Origin: Escherichia phage K1ind1
DNA: 42,292 bases
Direction: 5' to 3' (one strand)
Sequence record: NC_041897.1
Shown: one piece after another, positions 9,770-16,991 of the stretch
Layout of the letters: every line of letters starts with the position of its first letter
Numbering within the stretch: position 1 is the first letter of the stretch
Translations under genes and position numbers: made by a program
Notes under the pieces: generated by a model
Database searches by the model: none
What the model saw: only the letters and a program-made list of their open reading frames with translations
Told to the model about the DNA's origin: nothing

Positions 9770-10182
9770 TGGGCTACTTTGAGGACTTAACGAAAGCGTT
9801 TGATGCGCCGCTGGTAGCCTTCGGAACCGCCAACGGCATCAAGGTCGCGCTTGAAAATATCGACGCGCCGACGTCAACCGATACGCCGTATCTGGCAAGT
9901 TATATGTTGCTGGCGGATACGGAACAGGCGGATTTGTTCTTCACGGAACAACGCGCGGGTGTTTATCAGGTCGACATTAACTACGCATCGGTGAAAGGTA
10001 GCGCGCCGATCAATAAAATGGCAGACTTACTTAACACGGCGTTTAAAGCAGGTAAGTCATTTTCACGTAACGACATCTGCGCCGTTGTGAATGAGGTTAG
10101 CCTGGGGCCGCTGATTGTAGAAAACGGATGGGCCAAACGACCATTGTCAATTAACTTTATTGCATTCACCAAGAGGCTGTGA
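9766..10182 (+). CDS. tail terminator-like protein
   Basis: 138 aa; immediately upstream of major tail gene. Confidence 0.4.
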   Translation: MMGYFEDLTKAFDAPLVAFGTANGIKVALENIDAPTSTDTPYLASYMLLADTEQADLFFTEQRAGVYQVDINYASVKGSAPINKMADLLNTAFKAGKSFSRNDICAVVNEVSLGPLIVENGWAKRPLSINFIAFTKRL

Positions 10183-10184
10183 AT

Positions 10185-11351
10185 ATGGCTACAACTCCTT
10201 TTAAGGGCGCGAATACTGCGCAATTCTATGTGGCAGAAACTACCCCGGGCGTAACACCGACTAACCCGGTCTGGTCGCCATTGCGTAACACAGGTGGCGT
10301 TCCTGCCATTACCCGCGACACGCTGACCTCCAACGAACTGGACGGCAGCCGTGAAACTACGTCAATCCGCACCGGTAACAAGCAGGTTAGCGGAGAATAC
10401 GCTATTGAGCTTAGCTCGAAAAGCCAGGACGACTGGCTGGCGGGTGCTTTAGGCTCTACATGGCAATCCGGTAGTTCTCTGACCGGGCTATCAATTACCG
10501 TCGCGCCTGCAGGCAAGACCTTTACCCGTGCCGAAGGTAGCTTTATTTCTGACGGCGTTGAAGTGGGCGACCTGATTGCGTTTACCGACTTAACCGGTGA
10601 CAACGCAAAACCGTTTATCGTAACTGCAGTAGAGGCACTGGTAGTGACCGGGGCGGGTATCCAGCATACCCTGACCACAGAGACAGTAACTACCGCCGCT
10701 AAGACAGGGGATAAACTGGAAACGGGAAGCCAGTGCAAGACGTTCTCTATTCTCACCTGGTACAAAGGCCAGTGCGGCGGGACTGACGCGTACACACTAA
10801 CCAAAGGCGTGGAAGTTTCTGGTTTTACCATCGAACAGGCTGTTAACGCTATGGTAACTGGCAGCTTCCCGTTCATCGGTCGCAGTCAGGAGATTCTCAC
10901 CACGCAGCCGTCTGGTTCTGATTTCTCCTCTGTTACGTTTGGTGACGAGCCGTTCTCCTCGGTCGATGTTTCTGTGTTCGACGGTTCTACGCCGTTGCGT
11001 TGCGACAGCCTGACCATCACCAACGACAACAGCGCGTCCGCACAGTTCGAACTCGGCAACACTAACGTAGCGTTTGTGGAGCGTAGCCGAGCAGCTAACA
11101 CCTTCTCCATCTCCGGTAAGCTGTACGACATGGCGATGATTCAGAAGTTTATCAACGAGCAGCAGGTGGAGATTAACTCTATTCTGGCGGGGGTAAACGG
11201 GGCTATGTCTTTCAGCTTGAAACGTGCAGAACTTACCGCGGTTACACCTGAGATTGGCGGGCCTGAGTCAATCACTCAGTCCATCGAAGGCCAGGCTACT
11301 GGTAACCAGTACCAGTCGTCTATTGTTATTCAGCGCATCACCTACGCATAA
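10185..11351 (+). CDS. major tail protein
   Basis: about 388 aa from ATG 10185 (AAGAGG RBS); T/S/G-rich; precedes chaperone/tape-measure genes; followed by strong terminator. Confidence 0.55.
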   Translation: MATTPFKGANTAQFYVAETTPGVTPTNPVWSPLRNTGGVPAITRDTLTSNELDGSRETTSIRTGNKQVSGEYAIELSSKSQDDWLAGALGSTWQSGSSLTGLSITVAPAGKTFTRAEGSFISDGVEVGDLIAFTDLTGDNAKPFIVTAVEALVVTGAGIQHTLTTETVTTAAKTGDKLETGSQCKTFSILTWYKGQCGGTDAYTLTKGVEVSGFTIEQAVNAMVTGSFPFIGRSQEILTTQPSGSDFSSVTFGDEPFSSVDVSVFDGSTPLRCDSLTITNDNSASAQFELGNTNVAFVERSRAANTFSISGKLYDMAMIQKFINEQQVEINSILAGVNGAMSFSLKRAELTAVTPEIGGPESITQSIEGQATGNQYQSSIVIQRITYA

Positions 11352-11355
11352 AACT

Positions 11356-11380
11356 AAGGCCCCTTTCGGGGCCTTTTTCT
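11356..11380. terminator. bidirectional rho-independent terminator
   Basis: AGGCCCC-TTTC-GGGGCCT hairpin flanked by T-run on plus strand and TTAGTTTT on minus strand; separates major tail gene from convergent island. Confidence 0.6.
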
Positions 11381-11934
11381 TACAAACCTAATATTAAAGC
11401 AATACCTATAGCGTTCGATTTAACGTAACCCGGTATGATGTAGGTGTCATAATCTTTTACACCATCAATATCGTACAGGTAACCGCGGCTGTCCCCTTCA
11501 AACGTATGGCCGTCTCTGTGCAAGCGGACGATTCTCACATCATGCCCTGCGGCAACGATAGGGGCTACTTCGCTGGCGAACCCGCCATCAGACACCACAA
11601 AAACTTCGTCGCCGTCGGGCAAGTTTCCGGCAAGATACTTACCGAAATAATCATCACCGAATACCGGTTTAATGAATTGCTCGGAAATGGCAATCATGAG
11701 CTGACGCCGAGACAACCCGTTAAGGAAACCCTCTGGCTTTTCTTTCCGCGCCCGGTCGTCGTAGCCGTCGAGAAACTCGCGGTAAGCATCCTGGCCTAAC
11801 GCAGCCATAGCAATATTGAACATCGGATTCTTGAAACTGGCGACACCCTTCGCAAAGCCCATTTCTACCAGCGCCCTAGCAAGTGTGTCTTTCCCGCAGC
11901 CCGCAGGACCATTAAGAATAATTACCTTAGCCAT
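11380..11934 (-). CDS. P-loop nucleotide/polynucleotide kinase (dNMP-kinase-like)
   Basis: 184 aa; Walker A GPAGCGKDT near N-terminus; small alpha/beta kinase size; last gene of leftward island. Confidence 0.6.
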   Translation of the reverse strand: MAKVIILNGPAGCGKDTLARALVEMGFAKGVASFKNPMFNIAMAALGQDAYREFLDGYDDRARKEKPEGFLNGLSRRQLMIAISEQFIKPVFGDDYFGKYLAGNLPDGDEVFVVSDGGFASEVAPIVAAGHDVRIVRLHRDGHTFEGDSRGYLYDIDGVKDYDTYIIPGYVKSNAIGIALILGL

Positions 11935-12419
11935 TATTTATCACTCCCATGTGGTTTTAAGTGTGTAGAGTTCCCGTTACAGTCGTATTCAGTAACTGCG
12001 TGAGTGGTTATGCCGAGTTCGCGGAAATGCTTTATTACCGCTGGAGAGTCGTCGAATGCACACAAGATTCTCTCCGGCCCAATAGCACGCAACACCTCTT
12101 CTTTAATTACGATGTCTTTTCTGTTGTCGTGTTTGCTGCGCATGATTAACTGATAAAATTCGACGCGGTGGCGCTGCAACCACATTCTGGTTTCTTTTTC
12201 CGCGTCATCACTACGGCCTGTTAAGATAATAACGGCATAGCGACGATTAAGGGCGTTACACAGTTCGATGTTATCTTTAATGGGTGCATCGTCTTTGCAC
12301 GCCATGTTAAATGGTTTCCACGCCCAGGTTTCGCCGTAGTTATCTTTCGGCAGCAGGTGTAAACGATGAGTACCATCTGCCAATGTCCCGTCTAAATCGA
12401 AAATCACAATATCTTTCAT
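11934..12419 (-). CDS. HAD-superfamily phosphatase
   Basis: 161 aa; HAD motif I FDLDGTL, motif II ILTGR, motif IV FDDS; start overlaps upstream stop (ATGA). Confidence 0.65.
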   Translation of the reverse strand: MKDIVIFDLDGTLADGTHRLHLLPKDNYGETWAWKPFNMACKDDAPIKDNIELCNALNRRYAVIILTGRSDDAEKETRMWLQRHRVEFYQLIMRSKHDNRKDIVIKEEVLRAIGPERILCAFDDSPAVIKHFRELGITTHAVTEYDCNGNSTHLKPHGSDK

Positions 12420-13546
12420 CCAAGCATCTCCGGTGAAATAGTTAAACGTGCGACCTCGCCATATTCGGCGCTATAAGTAATTACGTTTGCACTGCGGCCC
12501 GACATCCACCCACCGCGGGAGGCATATGCATCTTTAGCCGCGAGAGTGCGGTGTTGCTCAACAATCATGTTACGGCTTTCTACAATCTTTTGGTGGTGCA
12601 GGTGACCCACGTGGGCGTAGCTGTAAACACTCTCGCCGAACGCTTTGCGGAACTTGGCGATCATAACCGGTTCGATAGCGTCGAATCGTGCTTTATGCCC
12701 ATGATGGAAGAACAGCGTCGTTTTGCCGTGTTGCACCATCTTGTAAACATCCGGCGACGTATCGACGAACACACGCGGCTCATTGTCGTACAGCGTACTA
12801 AACATCTCAGCTAACCAAATCATTCCGCTTTCGTCGTGGTTACCTTGCACAATAAGCAAGCGAACATTTTTATGCTTAACAAGGGCCATATCAACGACAC
12901 GGCGGACCATACGAATCATGTAGCGGACCAGTTTCTGATAGCGCGTGTCCGCATCGAGAACATGACCACTTGCCGGTGTAACGGCGTCCAGGCTATCGAA
13001 GTGCGCAAGGTCGCCGAGCAGATTAATAACTCCTGTTCCTGCATCCGGCGCTTTCTGAAACGCGGCATCGAACCAACGAGAGAACAGGTCTTCCGCGATT
13101 TTCATATCCCAGTCGTCGCCGCTCTCGTCAGCCCATGCCAGCATACCGAGGTGAAAATCAGATACCGTGTAAAGATTGAGTAGCTTGCCGTCGCGTTTGG
13201 CGCGTGCTGCTTTAACAGGGGCGACTGGCGTAATCTCTGATTTCATTCCTTCGATTACGGCTTTCATCAACTCGACCTGACGTTCAGCATCGGTGTCTGT
13301 CTTAACCCATTGCAACTTAGTGTTGCCGAACTCGTCCACCAGCGACGACGTTCCTTTAATCTTGTAGCCGTCCGGCACAAGGTGACTAACGTCGCGCCCG
13401 TGGCCTACGCCTTTCTTAGCCAGCTTCGCTTTACGGATACGGATAACGCGGTCAGAGATGCCGTATTTACGAGCTATATCGATATTCTTCATCCCGGCGT
13501 TCAATTCTTCCTGCAACTGTTCGTCGGTTATTTTCTTCTGGGCCAT
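12416..13546 (-). CDS. HTH domain fused to calcineurin-like metallophosphoesterase
   Basis: 376 aa; N-terminal HTH (NIDIARKYGISDRVIRIRKAKL); metallophosphoesterase motifs SDFHLG, GDLAHFD, GNHDE, HHGH, GHLHH; GAGGAAG RBS. Confidence 0.65.
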   Translation of the reverse strand: MAQKKITDEQLQEELNAGMKNIDIARKYGISDRVIRIRKAKLAKKGVGHGRDVSHLVPDGYKIKGTSSLVDEFGNTKLQWVKTDTDAERQVELMKAVIEGMKSEITPVAPVKAARAKRDGKLLNLYTVSDFHLGMLAWADESGDDWDMKIAEDLFSRWFDAAFQKAPDAGTGVINLLGDLAHFDSLDAVTPASGHVLDADTRYQKLVRYMIRMVRRVVDMALVKHKNVRLLIVQGNHDESGMIWLAEMFSTLYDNEPRVFVDTSPDVYKMVQHGKTTLFFHHGHKARFDAIEPVMIAKFRKAFGESVYSYAHVGHLHHQKIVESRNMIVEQHRTLAAKDAYASRGGWMSGRSANVITYSAEYGEVARLTISPEMLG

Positions 13547-13584
13547 ACTTACTTCCTCGTGTTTAGGATTTGTCCTATACTAGC

Positions 13585-13776
13585 TCACTTCTCGTTAACA
13601 TTCGAGTTGCACGCCCAGATTAAAATAAAGACCCACGGCAGCAGCGCCCAGCCAAGAAACAGATTAGCCATGAATATCGCTAACTTCGCTTTATGGTTAC
13701 GGAAGTACGCAACCAGGAAAGGCGCAAAATAAACGAGAAGTGCAAACAGAATTAAGGAAACTGGTAAACTTGACAT
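13585..13776 (-). CDS. small membrane protein, superinfection-immunity (Imm) family-like
   Basis: 63 aa from second ATG (GGAGG RBS); two hydrophobic helices flanking RNHKAKLAIF...GWALLPW, a pattern resembling the Imm superinfection family. Confidence 0.5.
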   Translation of the reverse strand: MSSLPVSLILFALLVYFAPFLVAYFRNHKAKLAIFMANLFLGWALLPWVFILIWACNSNVNEK

Positions 13777-13806
13777 TTTAAATCCCTCCATTGTTGGTGT
13801 AAGTGA

Positions 13807-13835: not shown

Positions 13836-13943
13836 GTAATGTGATAGAATAATTTTGCGCCTAGTGTCGCACACGAAAAGCGGATGGTTACCGTCTGGCG
13901 CATTTATCGTTAACCTGTAACCTCTTAACCAAAGGATTAAAGA

Positions 13944-14360
13944 ATGAAACTTTCTGATTTTTATTTCGAAGAGAAAGCACTGGCGGGCAAGAAGATGCCG
14001 ATTTTGCTGCCGAATGGTGAAGACTCCGGCGAGTGGCTTAATGTCGTAAATCCTGATGCGGATGCCGCCGTTAAAGCGGGGCGTGCTTTCATTATTGCGT
14101 ACCGCCGCGGGCTGGCACGTTTTGAAGAACTGGAAAAAGCTGCCAAAGACTCTGGTGATTATACTGAATATAATCTGGCGGTTAACGAACTGGCGGAAGA
14201 CCTAAACCGGCAACTCGCGGCAGAAGTCGTAAACGGCTGGAGCTTTGATGAGCCTTTCTCTAAGGAAGCGTTTAACAAATTGCTCGACCAGTTCAAAGCA
14301 TTAGGCACACAGGTAGCTGCGTTTCATAACGCTGAGCGCAAAGCATTACAGGAAAAGTAG
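13944..14360 (+). CDS. tail assembly chaperone (gpG-like)
   Basis: 138 aa acidic protein immediately upstream of tape measure; classic position. Confidence 0.55.
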   Translation: MKLSDFYFEEKALAGKKMPILLPNGEDSGEWLNVVNPDADAAVKAGRAFIIAYRRGLARFEELEKAAKDSGDYTEYNLAVNELAEDLNRQLAAEVVNGWSFDEPFSKEAFNKLLDQFKALGTQVAAFHNAERKALQEK

Positions 14361-14725
14361 ACGCGCTGTACAGGTTCGCCACCTACGAGTTCGTTGATAA
14401 GCATAAAATCAGAGAGTTTGATTCTATAGCCGACGGACATGAACAGGCGCTTATCGCGATGGGTGTAATCGATAAGAAAAAACGTGCAGCGCGACGGGGT
14501 GGGCCAGAATGCCCGCCCCTTTTTATATCCACCTTTGAGACGTATTGCGACATTAAGTTTACGCGACACGTGCGCGAGGACGCTGTAGTATTGTTTGCAA
14601 GAGAATCTGTTACGTGGCAAGACCTGAAAGCCTATCTCGATGTTATGCAAAAACAGCTTAGCCTGTTCGAGATAGACATTATCATGGGCTTAGAAGCAAT
14701 CTTTGAAGGTAGAAATCATGGCTGA
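13944..14725 (+). CDS. tail assembly chaperone frameshift fusion product (gpGT-like), inferred
   Basis: 0-frame ORF 13944-14360 joined to -1 frame 14336-14725; downstream ORF lacks its own RBS-ATG near the frame opening. Confidence 0.4.
14351..14357 (+). other. candidate -1 ribosomal slippery site GGAAAAG
   Basis: the -1 frame is open from 14336 to stop at 14725; A_AAA_G-type site 2 codons before the 0-frame stop. Confidence 0.4.
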
Positions 14726-16991
14726 TACCGCTAGCTTGATAGTACGAGTATCATCGACCGGCGTCGATAAAACCACATCACAACTGAACGGGCTTACCAA
14801 GGCGGCGGGGGCCGCCGCCGCCGCCGTTGTCAGTCTGGAAACCGCTAAGCAGGTGTTCAGCGCGCTGGTGGATTCCCAGCGAAACTTCGATAAGCTGAAC
14901 TCCGGCCTCATCACGATGACCGGGAGCGCCGAGAACGCGGCTAAGGCTTTCAGCGTCCTGCAACAGTTCGCAAAAGAGACCCCGTACGGTCTCAATCAGG
15001 CGGTAGAGGGGTTTACCAAGCTCGTTGCGCTCGGTCTGAACCCCAGCAAAGAGGCGTTAATCTCCTACGGCAACACCGCGGCGGCTATGGGTAAAGACCT
15101 TAATCAGATGATTGAGGCAGTTGCCGACGCCAGTACATTTGAATTTGAGCGCTTAAAAGAGTTCGGCATCAAGTCGTCGCAACAGGCAGATACAGTTTCG
15201 TTCACGTTCCGCGGCGTAACGACCACGGTTAAGAAGAACTCCGAAGAGATTCAGAAATACCTCCTGAATATCGGCAACACCGATTTTGCCGGGGCGATGG
15301 AGACGCGCTCTAAGACGCTAGACGGCCAGTTATCGAGCCTCGCCGACTCCTTCGACGGTCTTGTTCTTGCGGTGGCGCAGTCTGGTTTTGGCGACGCCGT
15401 AGGTGAGCAAGCGGCCACAGCGGAAGACGCTATCACGGCGCTTACCGACGCCATCGCGTCTAATGAGATAGCCGCCACGCTCCAGGATTGGGTGGCGCTG
15501 TTCAATGAGTCATTCAAGTTTATTTCCGACGCCTTGAATGACCTGGCATTCGATACCGAGGACAAATCCGTTGATATGTCTGACTCGCTGGGGACTATAC
15601 CGGATGCTATCCGTGAGTGGTTGCCAGACATCCAGCAGACATTTCACGAGGTTATTGCGTGGTTCCAGCGCATCGACGATTACGCTGTAGCGTTAGGGCA
15701 GACCCTTGCCGACGTGTTTGACCCGAGCAAAACGGCGGCGCTAACATTTAAAAACCTGACCGCAGAGGCCGACGCCGCGTACGCCGCTAGCATAAAACGC
15801 GCGGAGGCAGAATCACAGGCAATAACTGACCGCTCGAAACAGCGTAAGAAAGAAATTGAGGAACAGCGCAAGCAGTACGACGAGCGTAAGAAGCAAGAAA
15901 TTGACTTAGCCAGCCTTGTTAATAAAAAGGGCGGAACTGGTGGGGTGGGGACAACCGACGATAAAGCAGCAAAAGCCGCCGCCAAGAAAGCAGAGCAATT
16001 GCGGAATCAGGCGCAAGATTACCTCGACACTTTGGCCCGTCAGAACAACGACGAGTTAAAGGCTATCGACGCGCAGGAACAGCAGAAACTGGCTAAGGCA
16101 AAAGAGTTCTACAGCCAGGGCGCGTTGTCCCTGAAAGAATATGAACAAGCTAAAACAGCTATCGTCCTCGAAGCCGGGCAAAAACGACAAGATGAACTGG
16201 ATAAACGCCAGAAAGAAGCCCAGGAAAAGCAGCAGAAAGGTGACGACTTCATGGCTCAGATTATGGGTCAGAACGCTACTGAGCTTGAGCTTCTCGACAT
16301 CCAGGAACAGCAGAAACTGGCGGTAGCGGATAAGTACCGCGAGCAGGGTTTGATTAGCGAGAAGCAGTATCAGGCCGCTCTTAACGCCATCAACGAGCAA
16401 TACGCAACCAAACGTGCCGATGCAACGGCAACGGCCTTTGGTAACATGGCCTCAAACATCGGGTCTGCGTTGGGTGAGGCTTCTGGCGCGTACAAGGCAT
16501 TCGCTATCGTACAGGCCACTATCGCCACGTACACCGCAGCTATTGAGGCGTACAAGTCAACGGCAGCTATACCTGTAGTTGGCCCGTTCCTGGCCCCTGT
16601 AGCCGCTGCCGCTGCCGTTGGTGCAGGTATGGCGCAGGTTTCCGCTATCCGGTCCGCGCGTGAACAGGGTGGACAGTTATCCGCGGGGCAGGCTTCCACC
16701 ATCGCAGAACGCGGTAAACCAGAAGTTATTATGCCGGCTGGCGCATCTCGTGTTCGCACAGCACAGCAGATGAAAGAAATTATGGGGCAAAACGGGTCTT
16801 CTTCCGGCCCGTCTAATGTTACTATCGTAAACAACACGAGTTCTCAAATCGGCAACGTATCCACTGAGCAAGATGATGAAGGCCGTTTGCGAATCATCAT
16901 CGAGGAGCAGGTGGCTGCCTCTTTGCAGAACAGCAACAGCAAGATTAGCAAGGCCCGCAAAGCCACAAGAAATGCGCCGGGGTTTAAATAA
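14718..16991 (+). CDS. tail tape measure protein
   Basis: about 758 aa; long A/Q/E/K-rich coiled-coil, Gly/Ala-rich hydrophobic C-terminal segment; follows chaperone pair. Confidence 0.8.
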   Translation: MADTASLIVRVSSTGVDKTTSQLNGLTKAAGAAAAAVVSLETAKQVFSALVDSQRNFDKLNSGLITMTGSAENAAKAFSVLQQFAKETPYGLNQAVEGFTKLVALGLNPSKEALISYGNTAAAMGKDLNQMIEAVADASTFEFERLKEFGIKSSQQADTVSFTFRGVTTTVKKNSEEIQKYLLNIGNTDFAGAMETRSKTLDGQLSSLADSFDGLVLAVAQSGFGDAVGEQAATAEDAITALTDAIASNEIAATLQDWVALFNESFKFISDALNDLAFDTEDKSVDMSDSLGTIPDAIREWLPDIQQTFHEVIAWFQRIDDYAVALGQTLADVFDPSKTAALTFKNLTAEADAAYAASIKRAEAESQAITDRSKQRKKEIEEQRKQYDERKKQEIDLASLVNKKGGTGGVGTTDDKAAKAAAKKAEQLRNQAQDYLDTLARQNNDELKAIDAQEQQKLAKAKEFYSQGALSLKEYEQAKTAIVLEAGQKRQDELDKRQKEAQEKQQKGDDFMAQIMGQNATELELLDIQEQQKLAVADKYREQGLISEKQYQAALNAINEQYATKRADATATAFGNMASNIGSALGEASGAYKAFAIVQATIATYTAAIEAYKSTAAIPVVGPFLAPVAAAAAVGAGMAQVSAIRSAREQGGQLSAGQASTIAERGKPEVIMPAGASRVRTAQQMKEIMGQNGSSSGPSNVTIVNNTSSQIGNVSTEQDDEGRLRIIIEEQVAASLQNSNSKISKARKATRNAPGFK

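What the first reader, a model, noticed from the sequence alone, without database searches (positions are those of the whole stretch)
14336..14725. Programmed -1 frameshift candidate in the tail assembly chaperone genes
The -1 frame relative to the chaperone ORF is open from 14336 to 14725 and overlaps the last 8 codons of the 0-frame gene, which contain the slippery-type heptamer GGAAAAG (14351-14357, A_AAA_G class) just before the TAG stop. The downstream ORF's first ATG is 100 nt into the open frame and has no convincing RBS. This matches the conserved gpG/gpGT arrangement upstream of tape measure genes.
Basis: partly seen in the sequence, partly recalled or inferred. Interest (0 to 1): 0.45.

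Follow-up and report, generated by a model that had tools for sequence, protein, structure and literature searches.

The report
Tail chaperone frameshift, already annotated
This is the usual phage trick of making a short and a long tail-assembly chaperone from one gene by a ribosome slipping back one base; it is already annotated in near-identical phages, but the slip signal is unusual and an apparent transcription terminator sits inside the extension.

Summary
The window is a Kagunavirus (K1G/K1ind-like E. coli phage). The chaperone gene G (13944-14360) ends CAG GAA AAG TAG. The -1 frame is open 14336-14725 with no ATG/GTG/TTG before 14459, and it ends on the tape-measure start (14718).

Comparative evidence for a -1 shift on the last codon is strong:
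- About 60 diverged relatives (42-99% G identity) all keep G-N-A_AAG + TAR.
- The 34 start-less codons evolve as protein.
- The ATG at 14459 is not conserved.
- Synonymous-site conservation across the whole 260-codon fusion peaks exactly at the junction.

In phase the heptamer is G_GAA_AAG, so only the tetramer A_AAG is canonical. I found no downstream RNA structure. The adjacent stop and an invariant GCGCUG five bases downstream are the only conserved neighbours.

The frameshift is already annotated as a joined CDS in K1ind2 RefSeq and in phage Shemara. It has not been shown experimentally, and many records split the two ORFs.

In passing: a covarying GC-rich hairpin plus T-run (14496-14527) lies inside the extension in 49 of 76 relatives. 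It is probably a partial terminator.

The parts
13932..13936 (+). Shine-Dalgarno-like AAGGA, 7 nt before the ATG of the chaperone gene G
   Evidence: read directly
13944..14360 (+). G: tail assembly chaperone ORF, 138 aa, 0 frame, stop TAG at 14358-14360
   Evidence: Pfam PF08748 Phage_TAC_4 at 25.1 bits (cut-off 21.1); PHROG 15027 positions 1-138, E 4.8e-72
14351..14357 (+). Heptamer as reported. In phase it reads G_GAA_AAG, which is non-canonical: the first base and the middle base of the penultimate codon vary among relatives
   Evidence: penultimate codon GAA 44, GCA 15, GTA 3, GGA 1 of 63 unique contexts
14354..14357 (+). A_AAG, the conserved slippery tetramer. tRNA-Lys on AAG (14355-14357) re-pairs with AAA (14354-14356)
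   Evidence: invariant in all relatives with 42-99% G identity; AAG in 24 of 24 non-redundant sequences although AAG is only 42% of Lys codons in this phage's tail genes
14358..14360 (+). G stop codon TAG, directly 3' of the slip tetramer. Its first two bases become part of the first -1 codon, GTA (14357-14359)
   Evidence: TAG 40 and TAA 23 of 63 contexts, next base always A or C; one natural exception with the stop one codon later (L104)
14363..14369 (+). GCGCTGT, invariant at the nucleotide level (codons Ala GCG and Leu CTG of the -1 frame), 5 nt after the tetramer. Role unexplained
   Evidence: among 76 conserved amino-acid columns only N77, K138, V139, A141 and L142 keep 100% codon identity; CTG 61 and TTG 2 of 63 contexts
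14357..14725 (+). T extension: -1 frame, 122 codons from GTA to the stop TGA at 14723-14725. The fused product join(13944..14357,14357..14725) is 260 aa
   Evidence: Pfam PF23812 Phage_TAC_18, E 3.6e-18; PHROG 15027 positions 139-259, E 2e-69
14366..14368 (+). CTG used as the 'start' of a separate downstream gene in some public annotations (Bas74, Golestan; TTG in Shashou). Here read as an internal Leu codon
14459..14461 (+). First ATG of the -1 frame (rival start). Not conserved: it is Ile (ATC/ATA) in diverged relatives
14496..14527 (+). Terminator-like element inside the T extension: stem GGGGTGGGC / GCCCGCCCC (9 bp, 8 GC), loop CAGAAT, then TTTTTATA
14718..16991 (+). Tape measure protein gene. 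Its ATG overlaps the end of the T extension (ATGGCTGA)
   Evidence: PHROG 1538, E 6e-195; Pfam TMP_3 at 38.6 bits, just below its cut-off of 41; K1ind2 annotation

Best explanation
Most ribosomes translating G (13944-14360) terminate at TAG 14358 and release the 138-aa chaperone. A minority slip back one base while tRNA-Lys sits on the last sense codon: AAG 14355-14357 re-pairs with AAA 14354-14356. They then read GTA GAC GCG CTG... to the TGA at 14723 and make a 260-aa G-T fusion (...ALQEK|VDALYRF...).

By analogy with lambda gpG/gpGT, the G part would bind the tape measure protein and the T part would recruit the tail tube protein.

Shown here:
- the frame anatomy;
- coding constraint on the start-less extension;
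- nucleotide-level conservation of the junction;
- family membership of both halves.

Inferred:
- that slippage actually occurs;
- that it is a single-tRNA slip, because the penultimate codon cannot re-pair in the GCA and GTA lineages;
- that the adjacent stop codon (slow decoding of the A site) and perhaps the invariant GCGCUG hexamer replace the missing RNA structure as stimulators.
For: (1) Anatomy.

(2) All relatives with 42-99% G identity end G with G-N-A AAG TAR, and the -1 frame stays open for 365-368 nt more. The first possible start codon in that frame wanders from +11 to +323 after the stop, and in two records lies upstream of it.

(3) The 34 codons between the stop and ATG 14459 behave as coding sequence. 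Mean pairwise differences at codon positions 1, 2 and 3 are 0.24, 0.24 and 0.49. pN/pS is 0.39. The other two frames are closed in nearly all sequences. The Met is Ile in diverged lineages.

(4) tblastn with the 122-aa extension finds 492 phage records; 490 cover at least 80% of it, and in 39 of the 40 rows listed the match starts at residue 1.

(5) A synonymous-site scan over 24 sequences sharing less than 93% nucleotide identity puts the top 5-codon windows of the whole fusion at residues 136-142: 98% identical codons against 47% overall. K138 AAG, V139 GTA, A141 GCG and L142 CTG are four of only five fully codon-invariant columns out of 76. The phage's codon usage is only weakly biased.

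(6) More distant homologues (28-36% identity) keep the -1 relationship. They carry canonical heptamers (T_TTT_TTC, A_AAT_TTT) 7-19 codons before the G stop. RP180 has the lambda heptamer G_GGA_AAG.

(7) PHROG 15027 is a fused-product family with its junction at position 138|139. Joined CDSs exist in K1ind2 RefSeq and Shemara.

(8) A_AAG is the most shift-prone tetramer in E. coli, which has a single tRNA-Lys. N_NNA_AAG sites are used by IS1222 and occur in B. subtilis cdd (PMC4066793 and PMC5009743). The phage encodes no tRNA.
Against: There is no experimental evidence for this phage group, and GT is not a virion component.

In reporter assays tetramers without a stimulator were barely above background (0.147% against 0.112%). 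A_AAG reached 5.6% only with a strong pseudoknot (PMC4066793).

I found no conserved downstream structure. The window's z-score is -0.92. The RNAalifold consensus energy is -0.58 kcal/mol. The mean z over 26 sequences is 0.03. The upstream AGGA is not conserved.

One natural variant (L104) has the stop one codon further on, so strict stop adjacency may not be essential.

A published genome note on the related phage Shashou states that there is 'no canonical slippery sequence' (PMC6776780).
Confidence: 0.85

Rival explanations
1. The downstream frame is a separate gene. It would be translated by independent initiation or termination-reinitiation at CTG 14366 (as annotated in Bas74 and Golestan; TTG in Shashou) or at ATG 14459 (as annotated in EM1). 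No fusion to G would be made.
For: Many public records annotate it this way. The CTG is nearly invariant (61 of 63 contexts) and is a legitimate TTG in Shashou. PHROG 4557 is a family of such stand-alone calls starting at that Leu. T4-like phages are reported to make their chaperone pair without frameshifting (Vladimirov et al. 2022, seen only as a reference in PMC10885494).
Against: This model gives no reason for the invariant AAG (rather than AAA) Lys codon, or for the invariant third-position A of the preceding codon. The AGGA before the CTG is absent from the GCA and GTA lineages. CTG is a very poor initiator in E. coli (my knowledge). ATG 14459 is Ile in diverged relatives, and the 34 codons before it are under purifying selection. 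Distant homologues carry canonical heptamers in the overlap. A free T domain would lose the link to the tape measure that the G part provides (inference from the lambda model, PMC5009743).
Confidence: 0.08
2. The fusion is made by transcriptional slippage: RNA polymerase adds an extra A in the A-run. The ribosome does not slip.
For: A short A-run (AAAA, 14353-14356) is present, and transcriptional slippage does generate frame changes in some systems (PMC5009743).
Against: The run is only 4 A in the window and 3 A in the GCA, GTA and GGA lineages. That is well below the roughly 7 or more needed for productive slippage (my knowledge). In addition, an inserted A moves the ribosome into the +1 frame, which closes within about 40 nt. 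Only a 1-nt deletion or a 2-nt insertion would give the T frame.
Confidence: 0.02
3. The -1 ORF is not expressed at useful levels, or the tetramer-stop junction is conserved for a reason unrelated to recoding, such as a nucleic-acid binding site.
For: Tetramers alone shift at near-background levels in reporters. The GCGCUG invariance has no known recoding role.
Against: The extension shows protein-level purifying selection over its full 122 codons, in hundreds of phages. It matches a curated chaperone domain (Phage_TAC_18).
Confidence: 0.05

Closest known systems
Phage lambda gpG/gpGT (Levin, Hendrix and Casjens 1993; Xu, Hendrix and Duda 2004, 2013, 2014, as summarised in PMC5009743)
   Same: A small chaperone gene sits directly before the tape measure gene. 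A -1 extension lacks its own start. The slip is on a Lys AAG codon at the very end of G. The products are presumed to be non-virion proteins made at a fixed ratio (about 30:1 in lambda). One close relative (RP180) even carries lambda's heptamer G_GGA_AAG.
   Different: In the window the P-site half of the heptamer is not slippery (G_GAA_AAG; C_GCA_AAG and G_GTA_AAG in relatives). The tetramer abuts the stop codon. An invariant GCGCUG follows it. The tail tube gene is separated from G by a 2.4-kb cassette on the opposite strand. I did not test direct sequence similarity to lambda G or T; membership rests on Pfam and PHROG chaperone families.
Annotated frameshift products in the same subfamily: K1ind2 ORF21A/ORF21B (NC_041898, YP_009597354/5) and Shemara CPT_Shemara_024/025
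   Same: It is the same gene pair with the same junction. K1ind2 DNA is 96.9% identical over 13900-14760. Both records carry a two-piece joined CDS.
   Different: Nothing substantive. These are annotations, not experiments. Other records of the same genes split them (SETP3, Golestan, Bas74, EM1, Shashou).
Tetra- and hexanucleotide A_AAG -1 sites: IS1222 (G_CGA_AAG) and B. subtilis cdd (A_CGA_AAG) (PMC5009743, PMC4066793)
   Same: A single-tRNA slip of tRNA-Lys on A_AAG follows a codon ending in A whose own tRNA cannot re-pair. The review notes that efficiency depends on the 5' codon (NNA_AAG).
   Different: According to the literature those sites use a downstream structure and/or an upstream Shine-Dalgarno stimulator. 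None is detectable here. The 5' codon here is always G-N-A.
'Shifty stop' frameshifting (Weiss et al. 1987, cited in PMC5009743)
   Same: A stop codon directly 3' of a slippery codon provides the pause. The adjacency is conserved in 63 of 64 unique contexts, and the base after the stop is always A or C, which is reported to be a weak termination context in E. coli (my recollection of Poole et al. 1995).
   Different: The well-studied natural examples are mostly +1 shifts (prfB, antizyme). The natural variant L104 moves the stop by one codon.

Membership tests
gpG/gpGT-type tail assembly chaperone pair with programmed frameshift | Two overlapping ORFs immediately upstream of the tape measure gene and downstream of the major tail (tube) gene | tested here: met
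   G is 13944-14360, T is 14357-14725 and the tape measure gene is 14718-16991. The tube gene is 10179-11351 (Phage_tube_2, 141 bits). The order is kept, but four minus-strand genes (11380-13791) lie between the tube gene and G.
gpG/gpGT-type tail assembly chaperone pair with programmed frameshift | The second ORF is in the -1 frame, has no conserved start codon of its own, and is conserved as coding sequence from the overlap onward | tested here: met
gpG/gpGT-type tail assembly chaperone pair with programmed frameshift | A canonical X_XXY_YYZ slippery heptamer in the overlap | tested here: not met
   The window has G_GAA_AAG and relatives have C_GCA_AAG or G_GTA_AAG. Only RP180 (G_GGA_AAG) and the distant homologues L096-L099 are canonical. 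The conserved unit is the tetramer A_AAG.
gpG/gpGT-type tail assembly chaperone pair with programmed frameshift | Sequence membership of both halves in chaperone families | tested here: met
   PF08748 on G (25.1 bits, cut-off 21.1); PF23812 on T (65.9 bits, cut-off 27); PHROG 15027 across both halves
gpG/gpGT-type tail assembly chaperone pair with programmed frameshift | Both G and G-T proteins are made at a fixed ratio and both are needed for tail assembly | not testable with these tools
   This needs protein analysis and genetics.
gpG/gpGT-type tail assembly chaperone pair with programmed frameshift | Chaperone fold of G | tested here: inconclusive
   The AlphaFold model had pLDDT 64.5 and pTM 0.39. 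Foldseek against the PDB gave no hit with E below 1. A sequence search of the PDB gave nothing relevant.
Z_ZZN tetranucleotide / NNA_AAG -1 frameshift sites | A_AAG in phase with the upstream ORF, and a -1 frame open across it | tested here: met
   It is the only in-phase Z_ZZN unit in the 22-nt overlap (read directly from the sequence).
Z_ZZN tetranucleotide / NNA_AAG -1 frameshift sites | A flanking stimulator: a downstream hairpin or pseudoknot, or an upstream Shine-Dalgarno sequence | tested here: not met
   No conserved structure was found. There was no Rfam match. AGGA is present in the window but not in the GCA and GTA lineages.
Shifty-stop frameshifting | A stop codon directly 3' of the slip codon, conserved among relatives | tested here: met
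   63 of 64 unique contexts. Its functional contribution was not testable.
Intrinsic (Rho-independent) terminator (for the element at 14496-14527) | A GC-rich hairpin immediately followed by a T-run on the transcribed strand | tested here: met
   9-bp stem with 8 GC pairs, loop of 6, then TTTTTATA. It is the top-ranked site in the first 20 kb of the window.
Intrinsic (Rho-independent) terminator (for the element at 14496-14527) | The structure is maintained by compensatory change | tested here: met
   Covariation score 0.319 against 0.135 +/- 0.021 in shuffles (0 of 500 reach it). 44 cells changed on both sides against 21.7 expected. There are 19 distinct stems, all at one position, in 49 of 76 sequences, and none elsewhere in G-T. 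Caveat: sliding the partner by +3 still scores 0.261.
Intrinsic (Rho-independent) terminator (for the element at 14496-14527) | RNA 3' ends are formed there | not testable with these tools
   This needs Term-seq, 3' RACE or in vitro transcription.

The most novel reading that the evidence does not exclude
The Guernseyvirinae chaperone module may set its G : G-T : tape-measure ratios with two devices that have not been described together.

(a) A structure-less -1 slip signal, G-N-A_AAG_UAR-NN-GCGCUG. The adjacent stop and an invariant 3' hexamer at a fixed 5-nt spacing would act as the stimulators. This would be a sequence-type 3' stimulator rather than a hairpin.

(b) A covarying intrinsic terminator inside the rarely translated T extension. 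It would stop part of the transcripts after G, so that G is over-produced relative to G-T and to the tape measure. Only read-through transcripts could yield full-length G-T.
Probability: 0.3. Interest if true: 0.55.

Novelty: already known. Interest (0 to 1): 0.3.

Why it matters
As a frameshift call it matters mainly for annotation. About 490 Guernseyvirinae records hold this gene pair. Of the eight I inspected, only two join it; the others call a 'hypothetical protein' that starts at a CTG, a TTG or a non-conserved ATG. One published genome note states that no slippery sequence exists. The family-wide motif G-N-A_AAG_TAR gives a simple rule to correct these records.

Two things are of wider interest. 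First, this is a natural, deeply conserved A_AAG tetramer site with no detectable RNA structure, with a conserved stop and a conserved 3' hexamer. It is therefore a convenient system for asking what stimulates low-level -1 slippage in E. coli. Second, the terminator-like hairpin inside the extension suggests that transcription attenuation and recoding jointly fix chaperone stoichiometry.

Tried and rejected
- Downstream stimulatory RNA. I folded 14358-14460 and 14320-14420 singly, ran RNAalifold on 12 diverged sequences, and computed per-sequence folds with shuffles for 26 sequences. No structure stood out.
- Pairing of GCGCUG with the upstream AGCGC (14335-14339) or the downstream CAGGCGC (14444-14450). 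It is present in the window but not conserved in relatives (by inspection). A ribosome on the slip site would also cover the upstream arm.
- Rfam scan of 14200-14800 at E up to 10. It returned only two sub-threshold snoRNA hits.
- Stop-codon readthrough. The 0 frame closes 22 codons after the TAG (read).
- A +1 shift. That frame closes within about 40 nt.
- Transcriptional slippage. The A-run is too short and gives the wrong frame for an insertion.
- Word-indexed protein database search with the fusion. It returned only 7 proteins, none fused. It was useful only for finding the L104 variant.
- Structure prediction of G plus Foldseek against the PDB. The model was low-confidence and gave no meaningful match. 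The PDB sequence search found nothing relevant.
- Whole-collection scan for the 18-nt cassette. Of 117 new loci, 68 belong to the same family and 49 are chance hits with no matching ORF arrangement, so I found no second family using the cassette.
- Literature search for Kagunavirus or Jerseyvirinae frameshift descriptions. Only the Shashou note turned up. Anany et al. 2015 (PMID 25663216) is not held.
Full report
**What the window is.**
The 861 bases around the finding match 97 phage records at 80-99% identity. The best matches are Escherichia phages K1ind3 and K1ind2 at 96.9% (genus Kagunavirus, subfamily Guernseyvirinae). The window is therefore a K1G/K1ind-like lytic siphophage genome.

**Checking the observation.**
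- The 0-frame ORF runs 13944-14360 (138 aa) and ends CAG GAA AAG TAG.
- The -1 frame is closed by TGA at 14333-14335. It is then open from 14336 to the TGA at 14723-14725.
- Its first ATG/GTG/TTG is the ATG at 14459.
- The tape measure gene starts at ATG 14718, overlapping the end of the -1 frame. It matches PHROG 1538 at E 6e-195. Its Pfam TMP_3 match (38.6 bits) falls just below the cut-off of 41.
- GGAAAAG is at 14351-14357 as reported.

The coordinates are right. In the phasing of the upstream gene, however, the heptamer is G_GAA_AAG. Only the last four bases, A_AAG (14354-14357), form a canonical slippery unit. No other in-phase Z_ZZN unit exists in the 22-nt overlap.

**What the two halves are.**
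- The G part matches Pfam Phage_TAC_4, above its cut-off.
- The -1 part matches Phage_TAC_18 at E 3.6e-18.
- PHROG 15027, annotated 'tail assembly chaperone', has a 259-position profile. G aligns to positions 1-138 and the -1 extension to 139-259. The family was therefore built from fused products with the junction exactly at the last G codon.
- The tail tube gene (Phage_tube_2, 141 bits) lies upstream at 10179-11351. Four minus-strand genes (11380-13791) separate it from G.

**Comparative test of the frameshift.**
I collected relatives from IMG/VR in three ways: with the G protein, with an alignment of G proteins, and with the DNA motif. I added GenBank and Logan records.

- Every relative with 42-99% G identity ends G with G-N-A AAG TAR and then keeps the -1 frame open for 365-368 nt.
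- The first possible start codon in that frame moves between +11 and +323 after the stop, and in two records it lies upstream of the stop. In two lineages only 14 codons remain after it.
- The extension aligns from its first residue across all lineages (V-x-A-L-Y...). The Met of ATG 14459 is Ile in diverged lineages.
- In the 34 codons between the stop and that ATG, mean pairwise differences at codon positions 1, 2 and 3 are 0.24, 0.24 and 0.49. pN/pS is 0.39. The other two frames are closed in nearly all sequences.
- tblastn with the 122-aa extension finds 492 phage records. 490 cover at least 80% of it, and the listed matches begin at residue 1.

Together these results show that the start-less stretch is translated in the -1 frame. 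That requires entry from G.

**Where the slip occurs.**
- Across 12 diverged sequences, only two runs of five or more invariant bases occur in 183 nt: AAAGTA (14354-14359) and GCGCTGT (14363-14369).
- I scanned synonymous-site conservation over 24 sequences sharing less than 93% nucleotide identity. The three top 5-codon windows of the whole 260-codon fusion fall on residues 136-142 (QEK|VDAL). They hold 96-98% identical codons against 47% overall.
- Of 76 well-conserved amino-acid columns, only five keep one codon throughout. Four of them are K138 AAG, V139 GTA, A141 GCG and L142 CTG.
- Codon bias does not explain this. In the phage's tail genes AAG is 42% of Lys codons, GTA 31% of Val, GCG 32% of Ala and CTG 33% of Leu.
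- The penultimate codon is GAA, GCA, GTA or GGA (44, 15, 3 and 1 of 63 contexts). It encodes four different amino acids but always has the form G-N-A.
- The stop is TAG (40) or TAA (23). The base after it is always A (50) or C (13).

In the GCA and GTA lineages the P-site tRNA cannot re-pair in the -1 frame. The mechanism shared by the family must therefore be a single slip of tRNA-Lys on A_AAG, not a tandem slip.

**Stimulators.**
I found no downstream structure.
- The window's 103 nt after the slip fold no better than shuffles (z = -0.92).
- RNAalifold on 12 sequences gives -0.58 kcal/mol with three pairs and no covariation.
- 26 sequences folded singly have a mean z of 0.03, and none is below -2.
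- Rfam has nothing.
- The phage carries no tRNA genes.

The literature sets the frame. A_AAG is the best tetramer in E. coli, but tetramers alone were near background (0.147% against 0.112%). A_AAG reached 5.6% with a pseudoknot (PMC4066793). N_NNA_AAG sites are used by IS1222 and occur in B. subtilis cdd, and their efficiency depends on the 5' codon's tRNA (PMC5009743).

Something must therefore raise the level here, or the level is simply low. Lambda needs only about 1 G-T per 30 G (PMC5009743). The candidates are the conserved adjacent stop ('shifty stop'), the G-N-A codon and the invariant GCGCUG.

One assembled natural variant (L104) reads GCA AAG TTG TAG CGCTGT. It keeps the tetramer and keeps the hexamer at the same spacing, but moves the stop one codon on. 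This argues that stop adjacency helps rather than being indispensable. The role of GCGCUG remains unexplained.

**Wider family.**
Homologues with 28-36% G identity keep a -1 extension of about 100 codons. They carry canonical heptamers (T_TTT_TTC, A_AAT_TTT, T_TTT_TTT) 7-19 codons before the G stop. Raoultella phage RP180 differs from the window by one base and has lambda's G_GGA_AAG. The window's signal is thus a lineage-specific variant of an ancestral G/G-T frameshift. A collection-wide scan for the 18-nt cassette found it in no other ORF arrangement.

**What is already known.**
- RefSeq K1ind2 carries ORF21A (13945..14361) and a two-piece joined ORF21B (13945..14726). The 782-nt span is what a -1 join requires.
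- Phage Shemara carries a 'tail assembly chaperone frameshift product'.
- SETP3, Golestan, Bas74, EM1 and Shashou annotate two separate genes. The second starts at the CTG/TTG five bases after the stop or at the ATG.
- The Shashou genome note says there is 'no canonical slippery sequence' (PMC6776780), although Shashou has CAG GAA AAG TAG.
- I found no experimental demonstration and no description of the conserved cassette in the searchable literature.

The frameshift itself is therefore already known at the level of annotation. The conserved non-canonical signal appears to be undescribed.

**Rivals.**
- Independent initiation or reinitiation at CTG 14366 or ATG 14459 does not explain the invariant AAG and the preceding A. 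It lacks a conserved Shine-Dalgarno sequence, and it conflicts with the coding constraint upstream of the ATG.
- Transcriptional slippage fails on run length (3-4 A) and on frame.
- Readthrough and a +1 shift fail because those frames close quickly.

**Side finding.**
The promoter/terminator scan flagged a hairpin inside the extension at 14496-14519. It is GGGGTGGGC-CAGAAT-GCCCGCCCC (9 bp, 8 GC), followed by TTTTTATATC.
- It is the top-ranked terminator-like site in the first 20 kb. The other strong sites lie at gene-module boundaries, for example the bidirectional one at 11356-11375.
- It encodes R-G-G-P-E-C-P-P-L-F-I.
- Relatives carry different stems at the same place: GAGAGGGGC/GCCCCTCTC, AAGGGGC/GCCCCTT, GACGGGGC/GCCCCGTT and GGCGGA/TCCGCC.
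- On a 32-sequence alignment the covariation score is 0.319 against 0.135 +/- 0.021 in shuffles (0 of 500 reach it). 44 cells changed on both sides against 21.7 expected. Sliding the partner by +3 still scores 0.261, so this control is less clean.
- In 76 unique G-T sequences of 780 nt each, 49 have a terminator-like hairpin. All are at +120 to +159 after the G stop, and none lies anywhere else. There are 19 distinct sequences.
- No plus-strand promoter-like site lies between the hairpin and the tape measure start.

The hairpin is too far from the slip site (139 nt) to stimulate slippage. The most economical reading is a partial intrinsic terminator, or a 3' stabiliser, in a stretch that few ribosomes enter. 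It would raise G relative to G-T and the tape measure. This is inference only.

**Verdict.**
The feature is ordinary in kind and already annotated in close relatives. Interest is modest. It is raised a little by the conserved structure-less signal and by the internal terminator-like element.

Noticed in passing
window 14496-14527 (+): A strong terminator-like hairpin (9 bp, 8 GC) plus T-run lies inside the -1 extension ORF. It is 139 nt after the slip site and about 190 nt before the tape measure ATG. It is present with 19 different, covarying stem sequences at the same position in 49 of 76 unique relatives, and nowhere else in their G-T regions. It may be a partial terminator or attenuator that sets the ratio of G to tape measure.
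   Followed up: partly
window 14363-14369 (+): GCGCTGT is invariant at synonymous sites (Ala GCG, Leu CTG) across lineages that share only about 45% protein identity. It lies 5 nt after the slip tetramer. No pairing partner is conserved, and the role is unexplained.
   Followed up: partly
L104 1925-1945 (Logan SRR27755633 contig, 41 kb): A natural variant reads GCA AAG TTG TAG CGCTGT. The tetramer and the hexamer keep their spacing, but the G stop lies one codon further downstream. It could be an assembly error. If real, it argues against a strict need for stop adjacency.
   Followed up: partly
L096-L099 (IMG/VR contigs, 28-36% G identity): Distant homologues keep the -1 extension but use canonical heptamers (T_TTT_TTC, A_AAT_TTT, T_TTT_TTT) 7-19 codons before the G stop.
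   Followed up: partly
L015/L046 (Raoultella phage RP180), junction region: A single A-to-G change turns the site into CAG GGA AAG TAG, which is lambda's canonical G_GGA_AAG heptamer, in an otherwise 96% identical G protein (94.7% identical DNA).
   Followed up: no
window 11380-13791 (-), and 11356-11375: Four minus-strand genes sit between the tail tube gene and the chaperone gene, which interrupts the usual tube-G-T-tape measure block. They are a 184-aa P-loop protein and, in K1ind2's annotation, polynucleotide kinase, DNA repair exonuclease and superinfection immunity. A bidirectional terminator-like hairpin lies at the tube-gene end.
   Followed up: no
window 13842-13850 (+): TGATAGAAT reads as an extended -10 promoter element about 94 nt upstream of the G start. 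The consensus scan, which needs a -35 match, did not list it (read). It may be the start of the tail-gene transcription unit.
   Followed up: no
public records Bas74 (L002 1960), Golestan (L102 610), Shashou (L103 14816), EM1 (L003 2060), SETP3 (L101 631): The T extension is annotated inconsistently as a stand-alone gene starting at CTG, TTG or a non-conserved ATG. Shashou even annotates the GGAA of the slip site as its ribosome binding site.
   Followed up: yes
window 14718-14725 (+): The tape measure start overlaps the end of the extension (ATGGCTGA). The second-highest peak of synonymous conservation in the fusion lies at its C-terminal codons, as expected for an overlapping ribosome binding site and start.
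   Followed up: no
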